Shown piece after piece: positions 32,393-64,000 of a stretch of DNA of 64,000 bases. The translations under genes and the position numbers were made by a program. The notes below the pieces were generated by a model, which worked only from the letters and a program-made list of their open reading frames with translations, did no database searches and was not told the DNA's origin. The DNA comes from Yuukianura sp. NJ FZ-2021 (Eukaryota): contig CM102290.1 of the NCBI GenBank assembly GCA_046563655.1, forward strand, positions 10,788,001 to 10,852,000, read 5' to 3'. Within the stretch, counting starts at the first letter, position 1. The number at the start of each line of letters is the position of its first letter.

Positions 32393-32808
32393 TTACGTTA
32401 CGGGAAGTTGCGCTGTTGTCTTATGCAGGAGGTCACCGCAGTGAGCCACAACAGCAGAGCTGACCATGAACCCGTCATTGAGGAGCATCGAGGACTTACA
32501 GGCTTGATTCAGTTGGTTTGACGCAGAGGATGAGGACGACGAAGAGGCTGACGAAGGTGAGCTGGCTGAACTGGCACTTGTAGTTGAGGATGAGCCGGAC
32601 TCAGTACTATTGGAACTACTGCCGCTACTACTACTGCCAGCTCCTTCTCCAGGTGACGAGATCCCTTCACCACTTCCAGGTCCGGATCCTCCAGAACTTG
32701 GACTTGGTTTCAACTGAATTGACATCCAGCTATGATTCATGATCGTTTCCAGGCTAGGTCTATCCGATGGTCTTACTTTTAAACAGGAACGTATCAAGTC
32801 TTTACATT
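32393..32808 (-). CDS. pim: Pim kinase last coding exon (subdomain XI plus Ser/Gly-rich tail)
   Basis: Acceptor tttttgcag; (E)[28 protein letters not shown] ... QLPVT*; TAA at 32393-32395. Confidence 0.92.
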
Positions 32809-35800
32809 CTGCAAAAAGAAATAAAAAAAATTGATTAATTATAAAATTAAAGATTTTCCAAAAAAAAAAAAATTGAGGGTGGAGCGTGAATCTAATCAAT
32901 CAGTTTCTGCGTGCAACTCAACCTAACCTAGCCACTAGTCGCTTCCTGATCTATGTACCACAGAATCCCATTCCAAAAAAATGCTCGTGTCAAAAAAATT
33001 CATCCTCGTGAAAATTCTCTTCCTCTTATGCCCTATGGACCGAATTATGAAAATTGCAAAAGACTTAAACGGGACCACTGTTTTGGTTAGCATTTAATGA
33101 TGCGTAATGATGGGGAATCAAGGTAAAACAGAAATTTGCGCAGCGCATGCGCCTCTTACTTCCTCTCCTTGAAACTTAATTGAAATCACAAGGGAGCCAA
33201 AGTATAATAGGATGCATTAGAGGTCTATTGTCGTCCTAGCGTGACACGACTTGGACTCTAGTTCCTCGTGTTTCATCAAAAACCAATTGTAGTCAATTAA
33301 CTAGCTTAGCAAAAATCCAAAGTCCCTCACCTTGGCTCAGTGATGTTCTAAACACAACTTCGGCTCTTAGGATTTGTTCGTCTTTTTCAAAAGGAATGTC
33401 TCCACAGACCATGTCGAATAGGAGGATTCCAAGGGACCAGACGGTAGCTGTTCGGCCATGGTACTTGCCCATTCGGATCCATTCGGGTGGAGCATAAACT
33501 CTTGTTCCTGTGTTCAAACAAAAATAAAATCACAATTAGGTCAATTGCTAAGTCTCAATTAATTGTAAAATCTTAATTACCAATTGCCATAAGCATCAAG
33601 CAAGCAAAGTAGGAGGGTAGAGAAGCAAGGTAGGGTAGAGGACTAAAAAAATTAACGTTCATTTTCAATTTTCTAAAATTTAAAAAAAAGCGGGAAAGGA
33701 GAAGTCCATGGGAACTCCACAGGTAACGCTCCAAGATCTCATTCAAACTTCCCTCCATGCTCCAATTTTCCGTCCATTCAAAAGCGTCTTCCAGAAGGGA
33801 ATTGGAAAAGGACGCGCCAAAAGACAATGGAGGGGCCTTTTTCTTTTTTTTTTCTTTTTCCAGAAGCGGGAATCGAACCTACAGCCCCCTTCTCAAGGGA
33901 CCCATTTCTCAAAGAGGAGGGAAAAATCTAAACCCGCTGTCATCCGGGACCCTTCTGATTTCCTTTCAACTTTTTTCAAAAGCCGATGGAATGTCAGGGT
34001 TTTTGGTTCGGATTCGGAGGGGACCCTTAGTCAAACAATATGAAAGAGCAGGGGAGCCCTTCATAACCTGAAACTAGGAGGGGTACTTGAACCAGACCAA
34101 TCTTAAGTCTACCTCGAAGGTCAGTTCCTCTTCCCTACCGCAGTGGTTTGTCAAGGAATTCGGCTGAGATTTTACCAAATTCCACTGGGATTAGATTGAA
34201 ACTCTCGCATTCCTCAGAGATTTTAGGTACAAATGCCCATTTTCGTGCAATGTAGGGTTCCACTTACAGCGTTTTAAGGTTATGCCAAACCTAAAACCTA
34301 ACCAGAGCTCTACTTATCATTTCCAACCTAATCAAAAATCAAAAGGAGTCCATGGTCACTACTACCAAGTAATGCAAGGGCACATGCTCCTGAATACTCC
34401 AAAAAAGCTTCATTTACTACCAAACTACGTTAGATTTACTCCCACTTGCCATTTCATTTCGATTTCCAATTCCATCAGCCAATTACTGTGTTCGCAAATT
34501 TTACAAGCCTAACCGCTTTTGCCAGGTTTCCCCTGACGCTACTAACGCTTCAAACAACATTTCCCGCCAAATCCAAAAAACCACAACCATTGTTTACTCC
34601 TACACAACTCATAATCATTGTTTACAAATCTTCACTACTGCCACATACCCTAACCTACTTTCCAACAAACAATCAAAATCTAACAACACATTCATCAATT
34701 CCCCTTAAATTCATCTGTTTGCTCTATTTTTTTCAAATCCAAATCTTCCCGCTCATTTTCAAAAAATGGCTTTTAGGATCTTCTATTACACTATCTCTTA
34801 CTCCACTTCAAACTAACAATTCAAAAACTATAGTAAAGAGGTGTGGCGGACTGGAGGTATCGATTGCAGTTACAAGTGGCACACAGGTCAAACAATCCTA
34901 CCATATCAGTTGTCTGCAAAAAGAGCCAGACAAAAAAGTTGACGTTGTCCCAGAATCTCTAACAATTGAAATGAACGTGTCTGAAGAACATAACTCTCCA
35001 GAGAAGCCCACAAAATGTTAGGCTAGGCGAGTTACCCTGACTAAACTCCAGTCGTCTGTGCATGAAGAGTCAAGGTCGGTTACAAAACAGCACAGAAATG
35101 TTGTGAAAGAGTCATTGGAGTCAAAAGTTGTTTTAACTTTAGAAAAAAGTCTTAAAATTTTCACCAACCAAGAAACAACCTTTAAAAAATACCAAATTTC
35201 AGGTTAATAATCACCGGTTGTGAGAAAATTTCGTCTACTTTTTAACCTTGACTCGTCTTAGGTTCGGTGACCTTCGTCATAGCCTCACTCTGGCCTTGCC
35301 TGACCACGACTCCGCCAACTGTCAAAAAGTGGTTTCAAGTTCAAAATTTAAATGCAAAAGTTCAGTTTGAGTCGAAATTGCGACTCCCAGCAGGAGATTT
35401 TGAACGAAAAAACTTTTTCCAACTCTTGAAATTTCAGAAACAATTTTATTCTTTATATTAAAATTTCCTCTTTTTTTGAATCATATTAAAACGGATGTTC
35501 GAAAATCCGAAAAGTTTAGATTAAAAAAAGATGACATCAAATCAAGTTTTTGCCTCCTGTCTTGTCACACTTGTCGTCTTCCGCGTCTTACTTCAAAAAA
35601 ACACATTCTCAAAAAGTTACGGAACTCTGATCAAGAATATTAAGTTTCATTTTTTTTTAAAAAGAAGTTTTGAAAAGGAGGTGACTCCTGTTACAAATAC
35701 TACTAAACTAAATTAATGAACTTGATTTTCACTTAAACTCATAACGAAACCAAAACAGTTAAGTCTTAATTCTCCTCCGTTACGTTTCTCATCCAAAGCA

Positions 35801-41800: not shown

Positions 41801-44800
41801 ATCAATCAGTTTCAGATTATGAGACTTTGAGTCCACCAGAATATTTTCGTCCTGAAATCACAACAAAAACGAAATTTTAACTAAAAAATTCACCTAAAAA
41901 TTTTTTCGTTTCTACAATTTTTTTACTCAACACAAATCTCGTTTCTATTTTTTTGAAAGTAAAGCCCCTTTCACATTTTTTTGAAAACTCATCATCGATC
42001 ACATTCAACAAAAAAAGATTTTTAACTTTTAACATTTTTTTCACCTCCAAATCACATTAGTCACCTCAAAAATTTCATCATTTCCACATAATTTTTTGTC
42101 ACTTTTTTGTCTCCATTGTTTCCCTATCTCTAGCTCTACCCTGCGTAGTCAACTTCTCAGTGTCTAATGTCTATTCTGTCTCCAACACAATTTAGTATCT
42201 TTAAATTTTTGTGTGTCCAGCACTTGTACCACTCCAAACTAATCACTAAAAATCACAATTACCAATTGGAATTAATCATATTAATAGCATTAGTGTAAAT
42301 AGCTACACAGTCCTCTAGTTAGCATTTGTCCTTCCTGTCCATATCCATTTTGGACATTGACTAATTCATATCGAGATGCCAATGATTGATTTCCCTTTAC
42401 ACAACATACCACAAATGGCTAAGGATGACATAAGCTCTCTGGCATGTGTACTATCTACTACACACTGTCTATGTTATGTATTTATGTATATACTAATGTA
42501 ATGTATGTACGTTCGTAACTGTTTCCACGCCAAGTACAGGTTACGATCCACGGGTTTACCAAATAAATCCAAAATCTAGGCAGTGTCACGTCAACCATTT
42601 AATCACACACCCACCTTATACTTTAGCTTTTAGTACTTTTTACTAGTACCTGGGATTGCCTCATCTCCACTAAACTTTGCCTCATATGTCGAAATTTCTT
42701 GGTCATTCAAAAACGTCAAGTGCTCTGCAACATCTGACAGCATGAACGACTCATGGGATTGGCCAGGGTCATCACATTACATACCATAAACTTTAACTTA
42801 TCAAACATTAGCACCCATCGTACATGTACTACTCCGCATCACAGCGTATGTGACCAACAACAGTTGAAAGAAGAAGAAAAATTGGGTTTTATTTTCAAAA
42901 AACGTTAAAAAATTACATATGCTGTCATTTCGAAAAAAAATCCTAGTCAGGAAAATTCTTCAAATGATTTCCGGCAATAATCTTTTGAGTCCACATCCGC
43001 CCCTCCTTAACATGAAATAATCCCTACAAAATTGTGGGTTTTACGTGTCTAAAAAATTTTTTTCTCAAAAAATCTGGATTCCACCGAAAAAATCTTCATT
43101 TGAGCGGCGCCTAATACTTACAATGGAAATGATTCTACGAATTCCTCCAAAAGTACCTAAACAATATATGCTGATGACCTCCACGCGCTAAACACAGACA
43201 GGTAACCTCAAAAAACCAAGGCCCCTCTACATATTCATATGGCCGATTTCCACGTATACTAAATCATTGAACATTGCAATACTTGCCACTGCCAACCAAA
43301 GTCGCTCTAAAAATCAGTGAGTGGATGTGGTTAAATCCAGTTTAGGTCTAACCGCCCCTCCTTAACTTACAAATTGCTACTTTTACAGACAAGACTACTG
43401 TTCCCGCGTACACTTTAAAAAAAATGTCCATGTTCACAAGTCTCTTTTTCTTCCTCATTAATCAACCACATACACTTATACAAAGTAGTTTTAACTAATT
43501 GAGGTTAAGCTCCTTTCATTTTGACCGGGGAACTTCCCAAAGCCGGAAGAAACCTCATTCAAAATTTTGTTTCATTCAACTCAAAAAACCTTAAGACCAA
43601 GTTTAAGTTTCCAACTAAAACCAACAAACATCAAACGGATTTTCTACTTTTTAACAAACTTTTTCCTTTCAATTGAAATCCTGCCACTAACTACCGCCGC
43701 GACTTTGACTTTCCTTCAAAACTTGGTGCATTATAATCCAGAAAAACGCGGTTTCCTGTTTGGGCTTCCAATTCCAAAAATTAACAATAATTTAAAACCA
43801 ACTGACATCATACAATTTTACGCACGTCATTCTATTATCAACATGTGCGGGTTTTACAATGAAATGGATCAATGAATGGAACTTTAGACACAACCTAGTT
43901 AGTTAACTACCAACCAACGTCAACTTTAAACTTTTTTTCATTTAAACTACATCGTCATACAGATCCTGTTAAATTGGTTTAACTTGGGCTAAACCAACTT
44001 GAAGGTTCCGGTTTCTAGTATTGTGAGTTTTTTTTTTATTCCAGCTTACCTTGATATCTCTATGGACAACTCCTGCCTTGTGACAGAGAATGATCGTGCT
44101 AACGATTTGTCGAAAAAACTCTCGCGCTGTGTATTCATCAATGAGTCCCTTCTCGGTTATGAAGTCGAAGAGGTCTTTAACAGGTTCAGGCCGTTCCATA
44201 ACAATAATGAAACTGTCAGATCGTTCAAAGTAGTCCAGAAGTTTAATGACTCCTTCAACATGGGACACTTTTCGGAGAAGACACACTTCCAGAGGAACTC
44301 TCATTCCATTCATCTGCAAATACAAAAATAATCAAAAATTTTAAATTTCTTTTTAAATATCATGTTTCATCAAAATTTCTACAGAATCAGTCTAACTTGT
44401 TGGTCAAACTACAAAGTTCTTAGAAAGTTGGTGCCTGTTTCTTGTTTACGTCTCTCCTCCCATGTTTTGTTTTTTGCAAACAACTCTTCATCATCATCCT
44501 CTTTTCGCGAATGCGTAATGAATGAGCCAGTTTGCATTCCCCGACGCCTGATTCATCTTTCGTGCAAAAGTCCAACTTATTTGATTCATGAGCCACTTTT
44601 AACTAAAACAAAGTAAAATTCCTAGTATTTCGGACTTGCGCATACAGGAATGACAAAGACAAAAAAACAGTACAGAGATCATCTGCTCCGGATTTGTTAA
44701 TAAACAAAGAGTCTCAGAACCTCATGACGCATGACTCATGTCGCTTTTGTTGCAAAACAAGGAGAGATTGACCCTGGCCCCGCCCAGATTCCAAATCCAA

Positions 44801-60952: not shown

Positions 60953-61481
60953 ATGTCGGGTCGAGAAGGTATAAATTTGGTCTATTGCTAATTATTAACG
61001 ACGAAACCACACTGAAACGTCATCGATTGAAATTAAAATATTATAACATTGATGTTACGTTTATTTGTCAGCTATCTATAGTTTGTGTTATTATTTTTCA
61101 GGGGGTAAGAAGAAGCCTTTGAAGGCACCAAAGAAGGATGCAAAGGAATTGGATGATGTAAGGTTTAATCAAATGATGAACTAGAGACTAAACTAAACAG
61201 AAAGTAGCAGCGATTTGTCAAGTAGTAAATGGTTCTTACTTTGTGATGTTAGGATGACGTTGCTTTAAAACAGAAGAAGAGGGAAGAGCAAAAGAAATTG
61301 GATGAGATGAAGGCAAAAGCGGCTCAAAAAGGACCTCTAGGTAATTTATCTAATTAATTGCAAATTTGCACTGCGTGACACTTGCCCGAATCCATCCCTG
61401 AATCTCCCAAGGGTAGAAGAAATATATTCGTATTATTTGTTTTTAGCCAGTGGAGGAATCAAGAAATCCGGAAAGAAATGA
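60953..61481 (+). CDS. TMA7: Translation machinery-associated protein 7 (TMA7/CCDC72), 4 exons, 64 aa
   Basis: Exons 60953-60968, 61102-61157, 61253-61340 and 61447-61481 (all GT-AG) splice to [64 protein letters not shown], the characteristic TMA7 sequence. AATAAA at 61614-61619. Confidence 0.97.
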
Positions 61482-61870: not shown

Positions 61871-62047
61871 TTAACACAAAAACACCACACATCAGCGCAG
61901 CCGCGCGGCGAAGACCTTGATCTCCCATCTCTGCACTCTTTGTCACTCATCATGAGATCTTTGTCATCTTCACCTTAAAAAGGTCGTCTGCGCTCTCGGA
62001 ATTGATTACAAGTTTTCTGAATACTTCGCAAGTATTTCCGAATTCCG

Positions 62048-63407
62048 ATGGCTGTCGTCGACGCGTACCCGAGCACCAATCTGGAGGTGTCTCGTAAGTA
62101 CTTATCACCGAAAAATAATCATAATAAATTGGGTATAATTCTTACGAACGTTGTATTATTTTCAGATATGCTGTCCCAACACATGCCATTGATGTCGCAT
62201 TTTGTTTATCCATCATGTGTCGTATCGCTGTACGTCACCTACTGTGTCTTTGCCCCGGAGCTGGCCATGATTCGTCCAACTAATCGGAACTTTGGATTGT
62301 ACTTACTGTTGAATCGGATCCGCATCCATGTTCAGTTCTTCCTAGCTGCTCTGGTACTTTTTATGCCGAGTTCGATAATTAACGAATATAGCAACTTCCT
62401 GTACTGTTACTTGGAGTAATTGGTTTTGTTGAATAGTTGGTCTACTGGACGGATCAATCTGGTCGCAACGTACTCTACGCTGGAGTGCCAGGGCCTCAAG
62501 ACATAGAGCTGGATGAACGACTTGATACACAAAAGGTACTGTTTAAATGTTCTTTAAATTAAGAAGTGTCTTGAAAATGATTGTTTCTAACATATAAAAC
62601 TCCTCTATAGATTGCATGGACACTCTGGGTCTTCCACATCATCAAAACAATTCGACTGGCTGACTGTATGCTGATTGTGAGAGGTGGGGTTGACATCAAT
62701 CGGTTCTTGATTTACTATAACGCTGGAATGGTCTACTTGAGTTGGATTGCTGTCAAATACTTCCCTGGTGGAAGCTGTAAGTTGAGACTAACCTTATTGG
62801 ATCTTTAGATTTACAGCTAGAGAAGATAGATTTTTGACAATATATCAGTTAAATTCGTTCATCTAAGTTTGTTTGTGTTGGTGCTAGCTATTGTTCCAGT
62901 ACTGATCAACTGCACGATTGAGTTTCAGTTCCATTTGTGGGATGAAGTGAACAAAGGGTGGCCAACCCTTAACCGGAACACGATCCAGAAAATCTCAAAT
63001 ACCGTAAGGCTTTTTGTCTATGATTATCGCTAATTGCTACTGGAAGTCGCATTCTCATTGAACCCGATGTTATTTGACATTTATAGCTTCAAGTGGCACT
63101 GATCTTCCTTCATTCTGCAGTCGGACTGATTCAATCTCCCTGTGGTTACCCGGAGCTGCTCTTCTTGGCTGTCGTCCTCTACATTCTGTCGTATTTTGTC
63201 GTTGCCCTGATCTGCTACGACGGTTCTCTGTCACAAGTTATGTGGTCATTCTGCTTCTACTACGACCAAGACGAGCCTCCGCTGCCGCGTAACAACGTCA
63301 TTCGTCACCGACCACTGGAGATCGTTGTCCGTCGTCGGCGGTTGACGGATTTTGGCGCTGCTGGAGACTGCCATCCACTCGGCGTGCGACGTCGCTTTGA
63401 GCTGTGA
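62048..63407 (+). CDS. Divergent ELOVL / GNS1-SUR4 family (fatty-acid elongase-like) membrane protein lacking the HxxHH box, 6 exons, 311 aa
   Basis: Exons 62048-62093, 62166-62353, 62437-62535, 62611-62776, 62888-63003 and 63087-63407; GT-AG, phases consistent, 936 nt. ELOVL landmarks appear in the family order: MPLMSHFVYP..LYV.Y...PELAM, W....KTIRLAD, W.AVKYFPGG, LIN, LQ....LH......CGYP. Multiple hydrophobic helices. Confidence 0.85.
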
Positions 63408-63811
63408 ACATTCCCAAACCAAGCTACAATCGCTCAATATCTTTACAACGCTTGGTAGCTGCATCCAAATTACTTGCAAAGTCCGAATCAATAGTAGTCA
63501 GTTCTCGAAGCCAAATTTGAATGGATCTTCAAAGGAAACGGAACGTCAGTCATGAAAGCTTCAGGTTTAAGCCTGTTCTAAATTTTTAACCACGATAATT
63601 CGAGAGAAACGTGAATTTTCTATTTATCATTTATCAGGAAATACAATGGTATGAGATTTACGACGTTGTGGGTGTTGAATAGCATTGATGGTGCTGTAGT
63701 TTGTACTTTGTAGCCTTTTTTCGTGGTGAAGGTCACTGCTCATTCAGAACGAATACATACCTTAAGTAATGTCAATGTCCATTCTATTACAGTTTGTCCA
63801 GTCCAGGTTTT

Positions 63812-64000
63812 TCAGTTGACATAGTAATAAATGTAAGGTTGGCCTTGACGTTGTCCCGTTCCCGGTCCCTGTCCAAGGAGATCTCGCATTACGTGAGCGC
63901 GATTTCTGGATTCAGTTGAAGTTTGGATGTGAAGAGGAGAACGTGGAGATGGGTAGCTCCGGTAGTTGCAAACTTCTACTGTTGGTATTGGCCGTCGTAA
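63812..64000 (-). CDS. Possible C-terminal coding fragment of a convergent gene running off the window edge
   Basis: The minus frame is open from 64000 for 62 codons (LRRPIPTVEVCNYRSYPSPRSPLHIQ...QGQPYIYYYVN) to TGA at 63812-63814, with coding-like composition. No homology recognised. Confidence 0.35.
   Translation of the reverse strand, partial: LRRPIPTVEVCNYRSYPSPRSPLHIQTSTESRNRAHVMRDLLGQGPGTGQRQGQPYIYYYVN

What the first reader, a model, noticed from the sequence alone, without database searches (positions are those of the whole stretch)
62048..63407. Intact ELOVL-family gene that has lost the catalytic signature motifs: candidate pseudo-elongase
Seen: a six-exon, 311-aa frame with no stops or frameshifts and with ELOVL landmarks in the right order. 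The family motifs are replaced: KxxExxDT reads KTIRLADC (62644-62667), the HxxHH box reads LIYYN (62707-62721), NxxxHxxMYxYY reads NCTIEFQFHLW (from 62908), and TxxQxxQ is reduced to SNTLQ. The C-terminus is an extended Arg-rich tail (…VRRRFEL) rather than a KKxx ER-retrieval signal. Established: the histidine box is required for condensation in ELOVL/ELO enzymes. Inference: a catalytically dead paralogue retained for a new role such as acyl-CoA sensor, scaffold, or regulator of active elongases. I know of no described function for such a protein, but could not search.
Basis: partly seen in the sequence, partly recalled or inferred. Interest (0 to 1): 0.72.

Follow-up and report, generated by a model that had tools for sequence, protein, structure and literature searches.

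The report
Elongase-family gene without catalytic histidines
This is an intact gene, kept by natural selection, for a membrane protein that descends from fatty-acid elongases but has lost every histidine those enzymes need, so it probably does something other than lengthen fatty acids.

Summary
A six-exon gene with GT..AG at all five introns (62048-63407, + strand) gives a 311-aa protein. All quoted motifs sit at the stated coordinates. Residues 111-245 are homologous to ELO/ELOVL elongases. They score 50.9 bits against a small profile built from two Pfam-confirmed ELO domains, against at most 5.7 for 500 shuffles. Exon 4 alone gives a sub-threshold Pfam ELO match. Mapped through a canonical ELO onto human ELOVL7, H147, H150, H151 and H181 become L, Y, N and E, while K124, D130, R137 and N177 are kept. 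H150 is the acyl-carrying nucleophile, so the known condensation chemistry is excluded.

It is not a decaying pseudogene. In DNA contigs from two studies, 10 of 12 listed coding differences are synonymous (P = 2.5e-5). All 7 listed indel loci are non-coding.

The proposed role (scaffold, regulator or acyl-CoA binder) is untested. I found no RNA run and no orthologue, and I could not fold the spliced protein. My literature searches found no histidine-less ELO. Verdict: a real, constrained pseudo-elongase, a new variant of a known kind, of moderate interest.

The parts
62048..62093 (+). Exon 1 (46 nt, codons 1-16, start ATG 62048)
   Evidence: First in-frame ATG after a stop. Donor is GT. No listed SNP or indel inside it, while the flanks carry several. 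It is the least secure exon: exon 2 has its own ATG at 62168.
62166..62353 (+). Exon 2 (188 nt, aa 16-78), two hydrophobic segments (about aa 28-51 and 62-80)
   Evidence: AG/GT sites. 4 of 4 listed SNPs are synonymous. Hydropathy. No Pfam hit alone. No similarity to canonical ELO N-termini.
62437..62535 (+). Exon 3 (99 nt, aa 79-111), hydrophilic loop
   Evidence: AG/GT sites. Hydropathy minimum. No listed SNP.
62611..62776 (+). Exon 4 (166 nt, aa 112-167): the ELO core, holding the altered KxxExxDT and HxxHH boxes and PGGS
   Evidence: Pfam ELO PF01151 E = 5.9e-4, 19.9 bits, profile 89-139, below the cut-off of 27. 38-47% identity to three ELO proteins. BLASTP gives 45% to P0003, E = 1e-13.
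62644..62667 (+). KTIRLADC in place of KxxExxDT (K and D kept; E to R, T to C)
   Evidence: Coordinates. Aligned to P0001 and ELOVL7 K124..T131.
62707..62721 (+). LIYYN in place of HxxHH (ELOVL7 H147 to L, H150 to Y, H151 to N)
   Evidence: Coordinates. Alignments. Residue roles.
62888..63003 (+). Exon 5 (116 nt, aa 167-205). A second in-frame acceptor at AG 62898-99 would drop 4 residues.
   Evidence: The 311-aa form scores 50.9 bits against 34.3. The one listed SNP is synonymous.
62908..62940 (+). NCTIEFQFHLW in place of NxxxHxxMYxYY (N177 kept; H181 to E or a gap; the Tyr pair lost)
   Evidence: Coordinates. Alignment. Roles of N177, H181, Y187 and Y188.
63087..63407 (+). Exon 6 (321 nt, aa 206-311 plus stop): two strongly hydrophobic segments, then a hydrophilic tail of about 55 aa
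   Evidence: Hydropathy. 5 of 6 listed SNPs are synonymous, including 4 in the tail.
63327..63404 (+). C-terminal tail with two Arg clusters (VRRRRL 63327-63344; VRRRFEL 63384-63404) and no C-terminal di-lysine
   Evidence: Coordinates. Synonymous SNPs at 63353, 63356, 63386 and 63401.

Best explanation
A real gene under purifying selection encodes a 311-aa, probably seven-helix ER membrane protein. It descends from the ELO/ELOVL condensing enzymes but can no longer carry out their reaction. The nucleophile His, its partner His, the TM5 His and the first His of the box are replaced by Tyr, Asn, Glu and Leu.

Shown: the gene structure, the ELO homology of residues 111-245, the loss of the histidines, and purifying selection on the frame including the tail.

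Inferred: it works non-catalytically, as a pseudoenzyme. My preferred mechanism is a regulatory or scaffolding partner. It would use the retained ELO helical core to pair with active elongases, or with the reductase and dehydratase enzymes of the ER elongation cycle, and so tune their output. The canonical di-lysine ER signal is replaced by a tail with two Arg clusters. These may act as arginine-type ER-retention signals, which are typically masked on assembly (recalled knowledge, not tested).

My odds are about 0.8 that it is functional and not a condensing enzyme, and about 0.35 for the partner/regulator mechanism in particular.
For: - Gene model: all five introns are GT..AG and the frame is open. 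Exon G+C is 44-61% against 25-36% for introns.
- ELO homology: Pfam ELO on exon 4 gives E = 5.9e-4. The only 3 library proteins at E <= 0.001 all carry Pfam ELO. The spliced protein against P0001 scores 73.7 bits. It scores 50.9 bits against the ad hoc ELO profile, against at most 5.7 in 500 shuffles.
- Seven hydrophobic segments.
- Residue mapping via P0001 to ELOVL7 6y7f: K124 stays K, D130 stays D, R137 stays R, N177 stays N. H147 becomes L, H150 becomes Y, H151 becomes N, H181 becomes E.
- The ELOVL7 preprint states that H150 forms the acyl-imidazole intermediate, and that K124, D130, H150, H151, N177, H181 and Q211 equivalents are essential (passages).
- Selection: 40 of 66 differing places were listed. 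12 of them lie in the CDS, and 10 are synonymous against 2 non-synonymous (S = 223 sites, N = 710 sites; binomial P = 2.5e-5). The other two frames give 1 of 12 and 3 of 12 synonymous.
- Listed SNPs number 12 in 936 coding nt against 28 in 765 non-coding nt (Fisher P = 0.002).
- All 7 listed indel loci are non-coding (P about 0.004).
- The tail carries 4 synonymous and 0 non-synonymous listed SNPs.
Against: - No expression evidence. No RNA run was available, so splice junctions rest on sequence alone.
- No orthologue was found, so constraint rests on polymorphism from two studies.
- 26 of the 66 differing places were not shown. Up to 8 of these lie on one divergent haplotype covering 61959-62218, which includes exon 1 and the start of exon 2.
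- The N-terminal third is unrecognisable by sequence.
- The whole spliced protein could not be scored against Pfam or folded.
- Several ELOVL7 CoA contacts are also replaced (H147, M184, Y187, Y188). A conserved ligand tunnel is therefore not assured.
- Nothing tested here bears on binding partners. The reading of the Arg clusters as ER signals is recalled, not tested.
Confidence: 0.45

Rival explanations
1. A non-catalytic ligand binder. The ELO tunnel still holds CoA or an acyl-CoA, and the protein acts as a sensor, buffer or channelling factor. It would resemble TMEM120A/TACAN, an ELOVL-like fold that binds CoA and is not known to elongate.
For: Several ELOVL7 residues that contact CoA or line the active site are kept: D130, R137, N177, Arg at the K204 position and one Gln. 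Purifying selection is shown. The TMEM120A precedent comes from titles and abstract starts in the listing.
Against: Other CoA contacts are replaced: H147 to L, M184 to F or E, and Y187/Y188 to W/D or F/H depending on the alignment. N72 and R266 cannot be mapped, because the N-terminus and the tail do not align. No structure could be predicted.
Confidence: 0.2
2. Still an enzyme, with different chemistry. The replacing Tyr, Asn and Glu, plus the His four residues downstream of the canonical TM5 His position (the H in FQFHLW), would form a new active site. Possible activities are acyl-CoA hydrolysis, acyl transfer, or condensation by another route.
For: Strong constraint on the frame. The replacements are polar or ionisable, not random hydrophobic residues. 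A His lies one helical turn after the canonical H181 position.
Against: No precedent turned up in six literature searches. H150A abolishes acyl-enzyme formation in ELOVL7, and mutants of H150, H151, N177, H181 and Q211 equivalents are inactive in EloA. Four simultaneous losses make residual condensation very unlikely.
Confidence: 0.12
3. A non-functional relic: an unexpressed or recently inactivated duplicate whose open frame and silent-site bias are accidents of young age or sampling.
For: No RNA evidence and no orthologue were obtainable. The N-terminal third and the motifs are very diverged. One contig of organism B shows an odd 2418-nt cycle across the locus.
Against: Divergence from the nearest relative is deep: 45-47% identity in the best-conserved exon. 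The frame has therefore stayed open for a long time. Listed coding SNPs are 10 synonymous against 2 non-synonymous, while silent-site diversity (10/223) is similar to non-coding diversity (28/765). No indel lies in 936 coding nt, against 7 loci in 765 non-coding nt.
Confidence: 0.08

Closest known systems
ELO/ELOVL 3-ketoacyl-CoA synthases (Pfam PF01151, GNS1/SUR4; solved example human ELOVL7, PDB 6y7f)
   Same: Homologous core from the KxxExxDT helix to the last transmembrane helix. About seven hydrophobic segments and a length near 300 aa. K124, D130, R137, N177 and the PGG turn are kept.
   Different: H147, H150, H151 and H181 are all replaced. The MYxYY tyrosines are lost. There is no C-terminal di-lysine, and the tail is longer with Arg clusters. 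The N-terminal third is not recognisable.
P0003, the nearest relative found (a 258-aa unspliced read-through prediction from a 1434-nt public assembly contig, source unnamed)
   Same: 45-47% identity over exon 4. The read-through after PGGS gives the same residues (CKL) as the window's intron 4 read in frame, so the intron sits at the same place and phase. Asn-Cys begins the TM5 motif in both.
   Different: P0003 keeps the Glu, Asp and Thr of KxxExxDT, an intact HVYHH box and the TM5 His. The histidines were therefore lost on the window's branch. Whether P0003 is a paralogue or a distant orthologue is unknown.
TMEM120A/TACAN
   Same: It shows that an ELOVL-like helical fold can serve as a CoA-binding ER membrane protein with no demonstrated elongase activity (listing: titles and abstract starts only).
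   Different: It is a separate family with an N-terminal coiled coil. No sequence relation to this gene was tested or claimed. This gene is a recent offshoot of true ELOs.
Membrane pseudoenzymes such as iRhoms (inactive rhomboids); recalled, not searched
   Same: A polytopic ER membrane enzyme fold that has lost its catalytic residues but is conserved and acts through binding.
   Different: An unrelated fold and pathway, offered as an analogy only.

Membership tests
ELO/ELOVL (PF01151) by descent | Significant profile match to the ELO domain | tested here: met
   The spliced protein scores 50.9 bits (residues 111-245) against a profile built from two Pfam-confirmed ELO domains, against at most 5.7 in 500 shuffles. 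It scores 73.7 bits against P0001. Pfam itself could only be run exon by exon: exon 4 gives 19.9 bits, E = 5.9e-4, below the cut-off of 27, and the other 4 exon pieces submitted (exons 2, 3, 5, 6) gave no ELO match; exon 1 was not submitted.
ELO/ELOVL by descent | Seven transmembrane helices in about 300 aa | tested here: inconclusive
   Hydropathy (19-residue window) shows seven hydrophobic stretches near aa 28-51, 62-80, 116-135, 140-160, 160-180, 205-225 and 228-255. No topology predictor or structure prediction could be applied to the spliced protein.
Active ELOVL condensing enzyme | HxxHH box with the nucleophile His (ELOVL7 H150) and H151 | tested here: not met
   The box reads LIYYN at 62707-62721.
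Active ELOVL condensing enzyme | TM5 motif NxxxHxxMYxYY (N177, H181, Y187, Y188) | tested here: not met
   The motif reads NCTIEFQFHLW. Asn is kept, His becomes Glu or a gap, and the Tyr pair is lost.
Active ELOVL condensing enzyme | KxxExxDT (K124, D130 essential) | tested here: inconclusive
   The motif reads KTIRLADC. The two essential residues K and D are kept, while E becomes R and T becomes C.
Active ELOVL condensing enzyme | TxxQxxQ (Q211 essential, Q214) | tested here: inconclusive
   The profile alignment puts Asn at the first Gln and keeps the second. A one-residue shift gives the opposite result. Alignment confidence here is low.
Active ELOVL condensing enzyme | C-terminal di-lysine ER retrieval signal (feature named by the finding; recalled) | tested here: not met
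   The protein ends in VRRRFEL, with no Lys in the last 7 residues.
Active ELOVL condensing enzyme | 3-ketoacyl-CoA synthase activity | not testable with these tools
   Needs expression and an assay.

The most novel reading that the evidence does not exclude
This is the first dedicated pseudo-elongase: a catalytically dead ELO paralogue kept by selection. [quoted passage not shown] Arg-cluster ER-retention signals would make its release depend on assembly.
Probability: 0.25. Interest if true: 0.7.

Novelty: new variant of a known kind. Interest (0 to 1): 0.5.

Why it matters
Elongases set the chain lengths of the membrane, cuticle and pheromone lipids that govern desiccation resistance, mating signals and insecticide penetration in arthropods. 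How their output is regulated at the protein level is poorly known. A catalytically dead family member that selection nevertheless maintains would be a natural handle on that regulation. It would also add the ELO family to the enzyme families known to produce functional pseudoenzymes. On the practical side, family surveys that require HxxHH (passages read use it as the hallmark) would either discard such genes or label them as elongases.

Tried and rejected
- **307-aa model:** I built it first from a mis-indexed exon 5. I replaced it with the 311-aa model, and the 307-aa form remains a possible minor splice variant.
- **Word-index homologue searches:** exon 6 and exon 4 with 'longer' lengths gave nothing. 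P0003 residues 1-56 found only itself. 'Near' lengths were never searched for the window's exons.
- **Full-library HMMER on exon 4:** only 3 proteins at E <= 0.001, and none is an orthologue.
- **Own genome:** not held, so paralogues elsewhere in the genome could not be listed. tblastn of the model against the window found no second ELO copy.
- **PDB by sequence with exon 4:** nothing at E <= 10.
- **ESM Atlas on exons 6 and 2:** best scores 0.76, uninformative.
- **Sequencing runs:** no RNA holder listed.
- **Metagenome scan with exon 6:** one locus, L001. It shares only the 8-residue search pattern in an unrelated context, so it is a chance hit.
- **Earlier findings:** none for this genome or this sequence.
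- **N-terminal 112 aa against canonical ELO N-termini:** no better than shuffles.
- **Exon 5 against P0003 by BLASTP:** no alignment.
- **Not done:** structure prediction and superposition on ELOVL7, and a Pfam scan of the whole protein. The tools take only sequences read contiguously from the window, and a spliced sequence may not be typed.
- **Literature:** six searches found no ELO or ELOVL lacking the histidine box. Supplements were not opened.

Full report
**What is there**

The region 62048-63407 on the + strand holds a six-exon gene. The exons are 62048-62093, 62166-62353, 62437-62535, 62611-62776, 62888-63003 and 63087-63407. All five introns (72-111 nt) begin GT and end AG. The CDS is 936 nt and gives 311 residues plus a stop. 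The ATG is the first in frame after a stop. Exons are 44-61% G+C and introns 25-36%.

I first mis-indexed exon 5 and used a second in-frame acceptor 12 nt downstream, which gave 307 aa. It also fits ELO domains better, at 50.9 against 34.3 bits, and it restores the usual spacing after the PGG turn. The downstream acceptor stays possible as a minor variant.

The short introns and AT-rich non-coding DNA suggest an arthropod genome, but that is only an inference.

**Is it an ELO?**

Pfam could only be run exon by exon. Exon 4 matches ELO (PF01151) at E = 5.9e-4 and 19.9 bits, below the cut-off of 27. The other four exon pieces I submitted (exons 2, 3, 5 and 6; exon 1 was not submitted) gave no ELO match.

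A full HMMER search of 1.84 billion representatives with exon 4 gave 3 proteins at E <= 0.001. All three carry Pfam ELO. Inside a script I spliced the exons and compared the product with these proteins:
- 73.7 bits against P0001, 47.4 against P0002 and 33.9 against P0003.
- 50.9 bits over residues 111-245 against a profile built from the two complete ELO domains of P0001 and P0002.
- The reversed sequence scored -2.2, and the best of 500 shuffles scored 5.7.

Hydropathy shows seven hydrophobic stretches. The first 112 residues show no significant similarity to the N-termini of the two canonical domains. The protein is therefore an ELO by descent with a strongly diverged N-terminal third.

**Loss of the catalytic apparatus**

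P0001 aligns with human ELOVL7 (6y7f) at E = 8.6e-47, and chain numbering equals ELOVL7 numbering. Chaining that alignment with the model-to-P0001 alignments gives this mapping.

| ELOVL7 residue | In this protein |
|---|---|
| K124 | K (kept) |
| E127 | R |
| D130 | D (kept) |
| T131 | C |
| R137 | R (kept) |
| H147 | L |
| H150 | Y |
| H151 | N |
| N177 | N (kept) |
| H181 | E (a gap in the profile alignment) |
| Y187 / Y188 | W / D, or F / H, depending on the alignment |

The TxxQxxQ region aligns ambiguously, with one Gln kept.

I read passages and section 7 of the ELOVL7 preprint (10.1101/2020.11.11.378570). It states that H150 forms the covalent acyl-imidazole intermediate and that H151 and D130 tune it. 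It also states that H181 and N177 act in transacylation and decarboxylation, and that mutants of the equivalents of K124, D130, H150, H151, N177, H181 and Q211 are inactive in EloA. With H150, H151 and H181 all gone, the known condensation mechanism cannot run. This last step follows from established mechanism. It was not measured here.

No H..HH occurs in any frame between 58 kb and 64 kb. The introns are too short to hide an alternative 166-nt exon. No alternative exon in view restores the box.

**Alive or decaying?**

No run on record as RNA holds the stretch, so expression could not be examined. DNA contigs of four runs from two studies were laid on 61900-63600. One study is represented by three runs of one sample, which may be the sample the window was assembled from.

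Of 66 differing places, 40 were listed:
- 12 lie in the CDS. Of these, 10 are synonymous and 2 non-synonymous (I133T and L206V).
- With 223 synonymous and 710 non-synonymous sites, 10 or more silent changes out of 12 has binomial P = 2.5e-5. It is 5e-4 even if a third of random changes were silent.
- Read in the other two frames, only 1 and 3 of the 12 would be silent.
- Silent-site diversity (10/223) is about the same as non-coding diversity (28/765). Replacement diversity is 2/710, a ratio near 0.06.
- Listed SNPs are rarer in coding than in non-coding DNA (12 in 936 nt against 28 in 765 nt; Fisher P = 0.002).
- All 7 listed indel loci are non-coding (P about 0.004).
- Four silent and no replacement changes fall in the Arg-rich tail, so the tail is also read in this frame and constrained.

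There are caveats:
- 26 differing places and 3 indels were not shown.
- For the one contig spanning the whole stretch (X2), 23 of its 25 differences are listed. For X4, 20 of 21 are listed.
- Even if all three unseen differences on those two contigs were replacements, the ratio would stay near 0.16.
- A divergent haplotype over 61959-62218 has up to 8 unseen differences, and these could touch exon 1 or the start of exon 2.

The nearest relative is only 45-47% identical in the best-conserved exon. The frame has therefore stayed open over a long divergence. Together these results argue strongly against a decaying pseudogene.

**Nearest relative**

P0003 is an unspliced read-through prediction from a 1434-nt public contig. 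It keeps the Glu, Asp and Thr of the KxxExxDT box (the first position reads F in the alignment), an intact HVYHH and the TM5 His. It reads PGGS followed by CKL, exactly as the window's intron 4 reads in frame. The intron position and phase are therefore shared. The histidines were lost on the window's lineage after it split from a canonical-looking ELO.

**How it most likely works**

The shown facts support a functional ELO-fold membrane protein that does not condense. The rest is inference. I prefer a non-catalytic partner or regulator of the ER elongation machinery, for three reasons:
- The conserved part is the helical core.
- The di-lysine signal is replaced by a constrained tail with two Arg clusters. 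These resemble arginine-type ER-retention signals that are masked on assembly (recalled knowledge).
- Pseudoenzymes commonly act through the binding surfaces of their active relatives (recalled knowledge).

The main rival is a ligand binder in the manner of TMEM120A, an ELOVL-like CoA-binding ER protein (listing and abstract starts only). Retention of D130, R137, N177 and an Arg at the K204 position favours it. Loss of H147, M184 and the Tyr pair that CoA wraps around weighs against it. New chemistry from the Tyr, Asn, Glu and a nearby His is possible but has no precedent in my searches. A silent relic is the least likely reading.

**Known or new?**

Six searches of the held library returned no description of an ELO or ELOVL lacking the histidine box. 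The insect papers whose passages I read treat HxxHH as a universal hallmark of the family: PMC5039406, PMC9961117, bioRxiv 10.64898/2026.04.19.719439 and PMC8315507. Supplements were not opened, and subscription journals are outside the library.

Dead members are common in enzyme families in general. I therefore rate this a new variant of a known kind, with moderate interest (0.5). It is real and constrained. Its role, expression and phylogenetic spread are all open.

Noticed in passing
window 60955-61481 (+): A small four-exon gene directly upstream encodes TMA7 (translation machinery-associated protein 7). Two exon pieces match Pfam PF09072 at E = 6.8e-9 and 1.2e-6.
   Followed up: partly
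window 62886-62899: Two in-frame AG acceptors lie 12 nt apart at the start of exon 5, giving 311-aa and 307-aa products. The upstream one fits ELO homologues better.
   Followed up: yes
window 61903-63183 (run X4, organism B, record 18): A 2448-nt contig begins and ends in the same 30 nt (62929-62958). It carries 1137 other letters between 61903 and 63183, which makes a 2418-nt cycle. Its depth is 19.2 against 3.4 for the neighbouring contig. This may be a tandem duplication or amplified unit covering TMA7 and most of this gene, or an assembly-graph artefact. No repeat in the window explains it.
   Followed up: partly
window 32393-32899 and 43969-44331 (-): Protein-kinase domain exons on the minus strand (Pkinase E = 8.7e-17 at 43969-44331; a weak C-terminal piece at 32393-32899), probably one long gene.
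   Followed up: no
window 34000-60000: Sustained negative GC skew (-0.1 to -0.34) over about 25 kb of the + strand. Only two small tandem arrays lie there. Unexplained.
   Followed up: partly
window 63820-63999 (+): An open frame runs off the window end, with a Met followed by a hydrophobic, signal-peptide-like stretch. It may be the first exon of the next gene. No Pfam hit.
   Followed up: no
L001 3001-3057: A metagenome contig hit that shares only the 8-residue search pattern from the tail, in an unrelated context. It is a chance match.
   Followed up: yes
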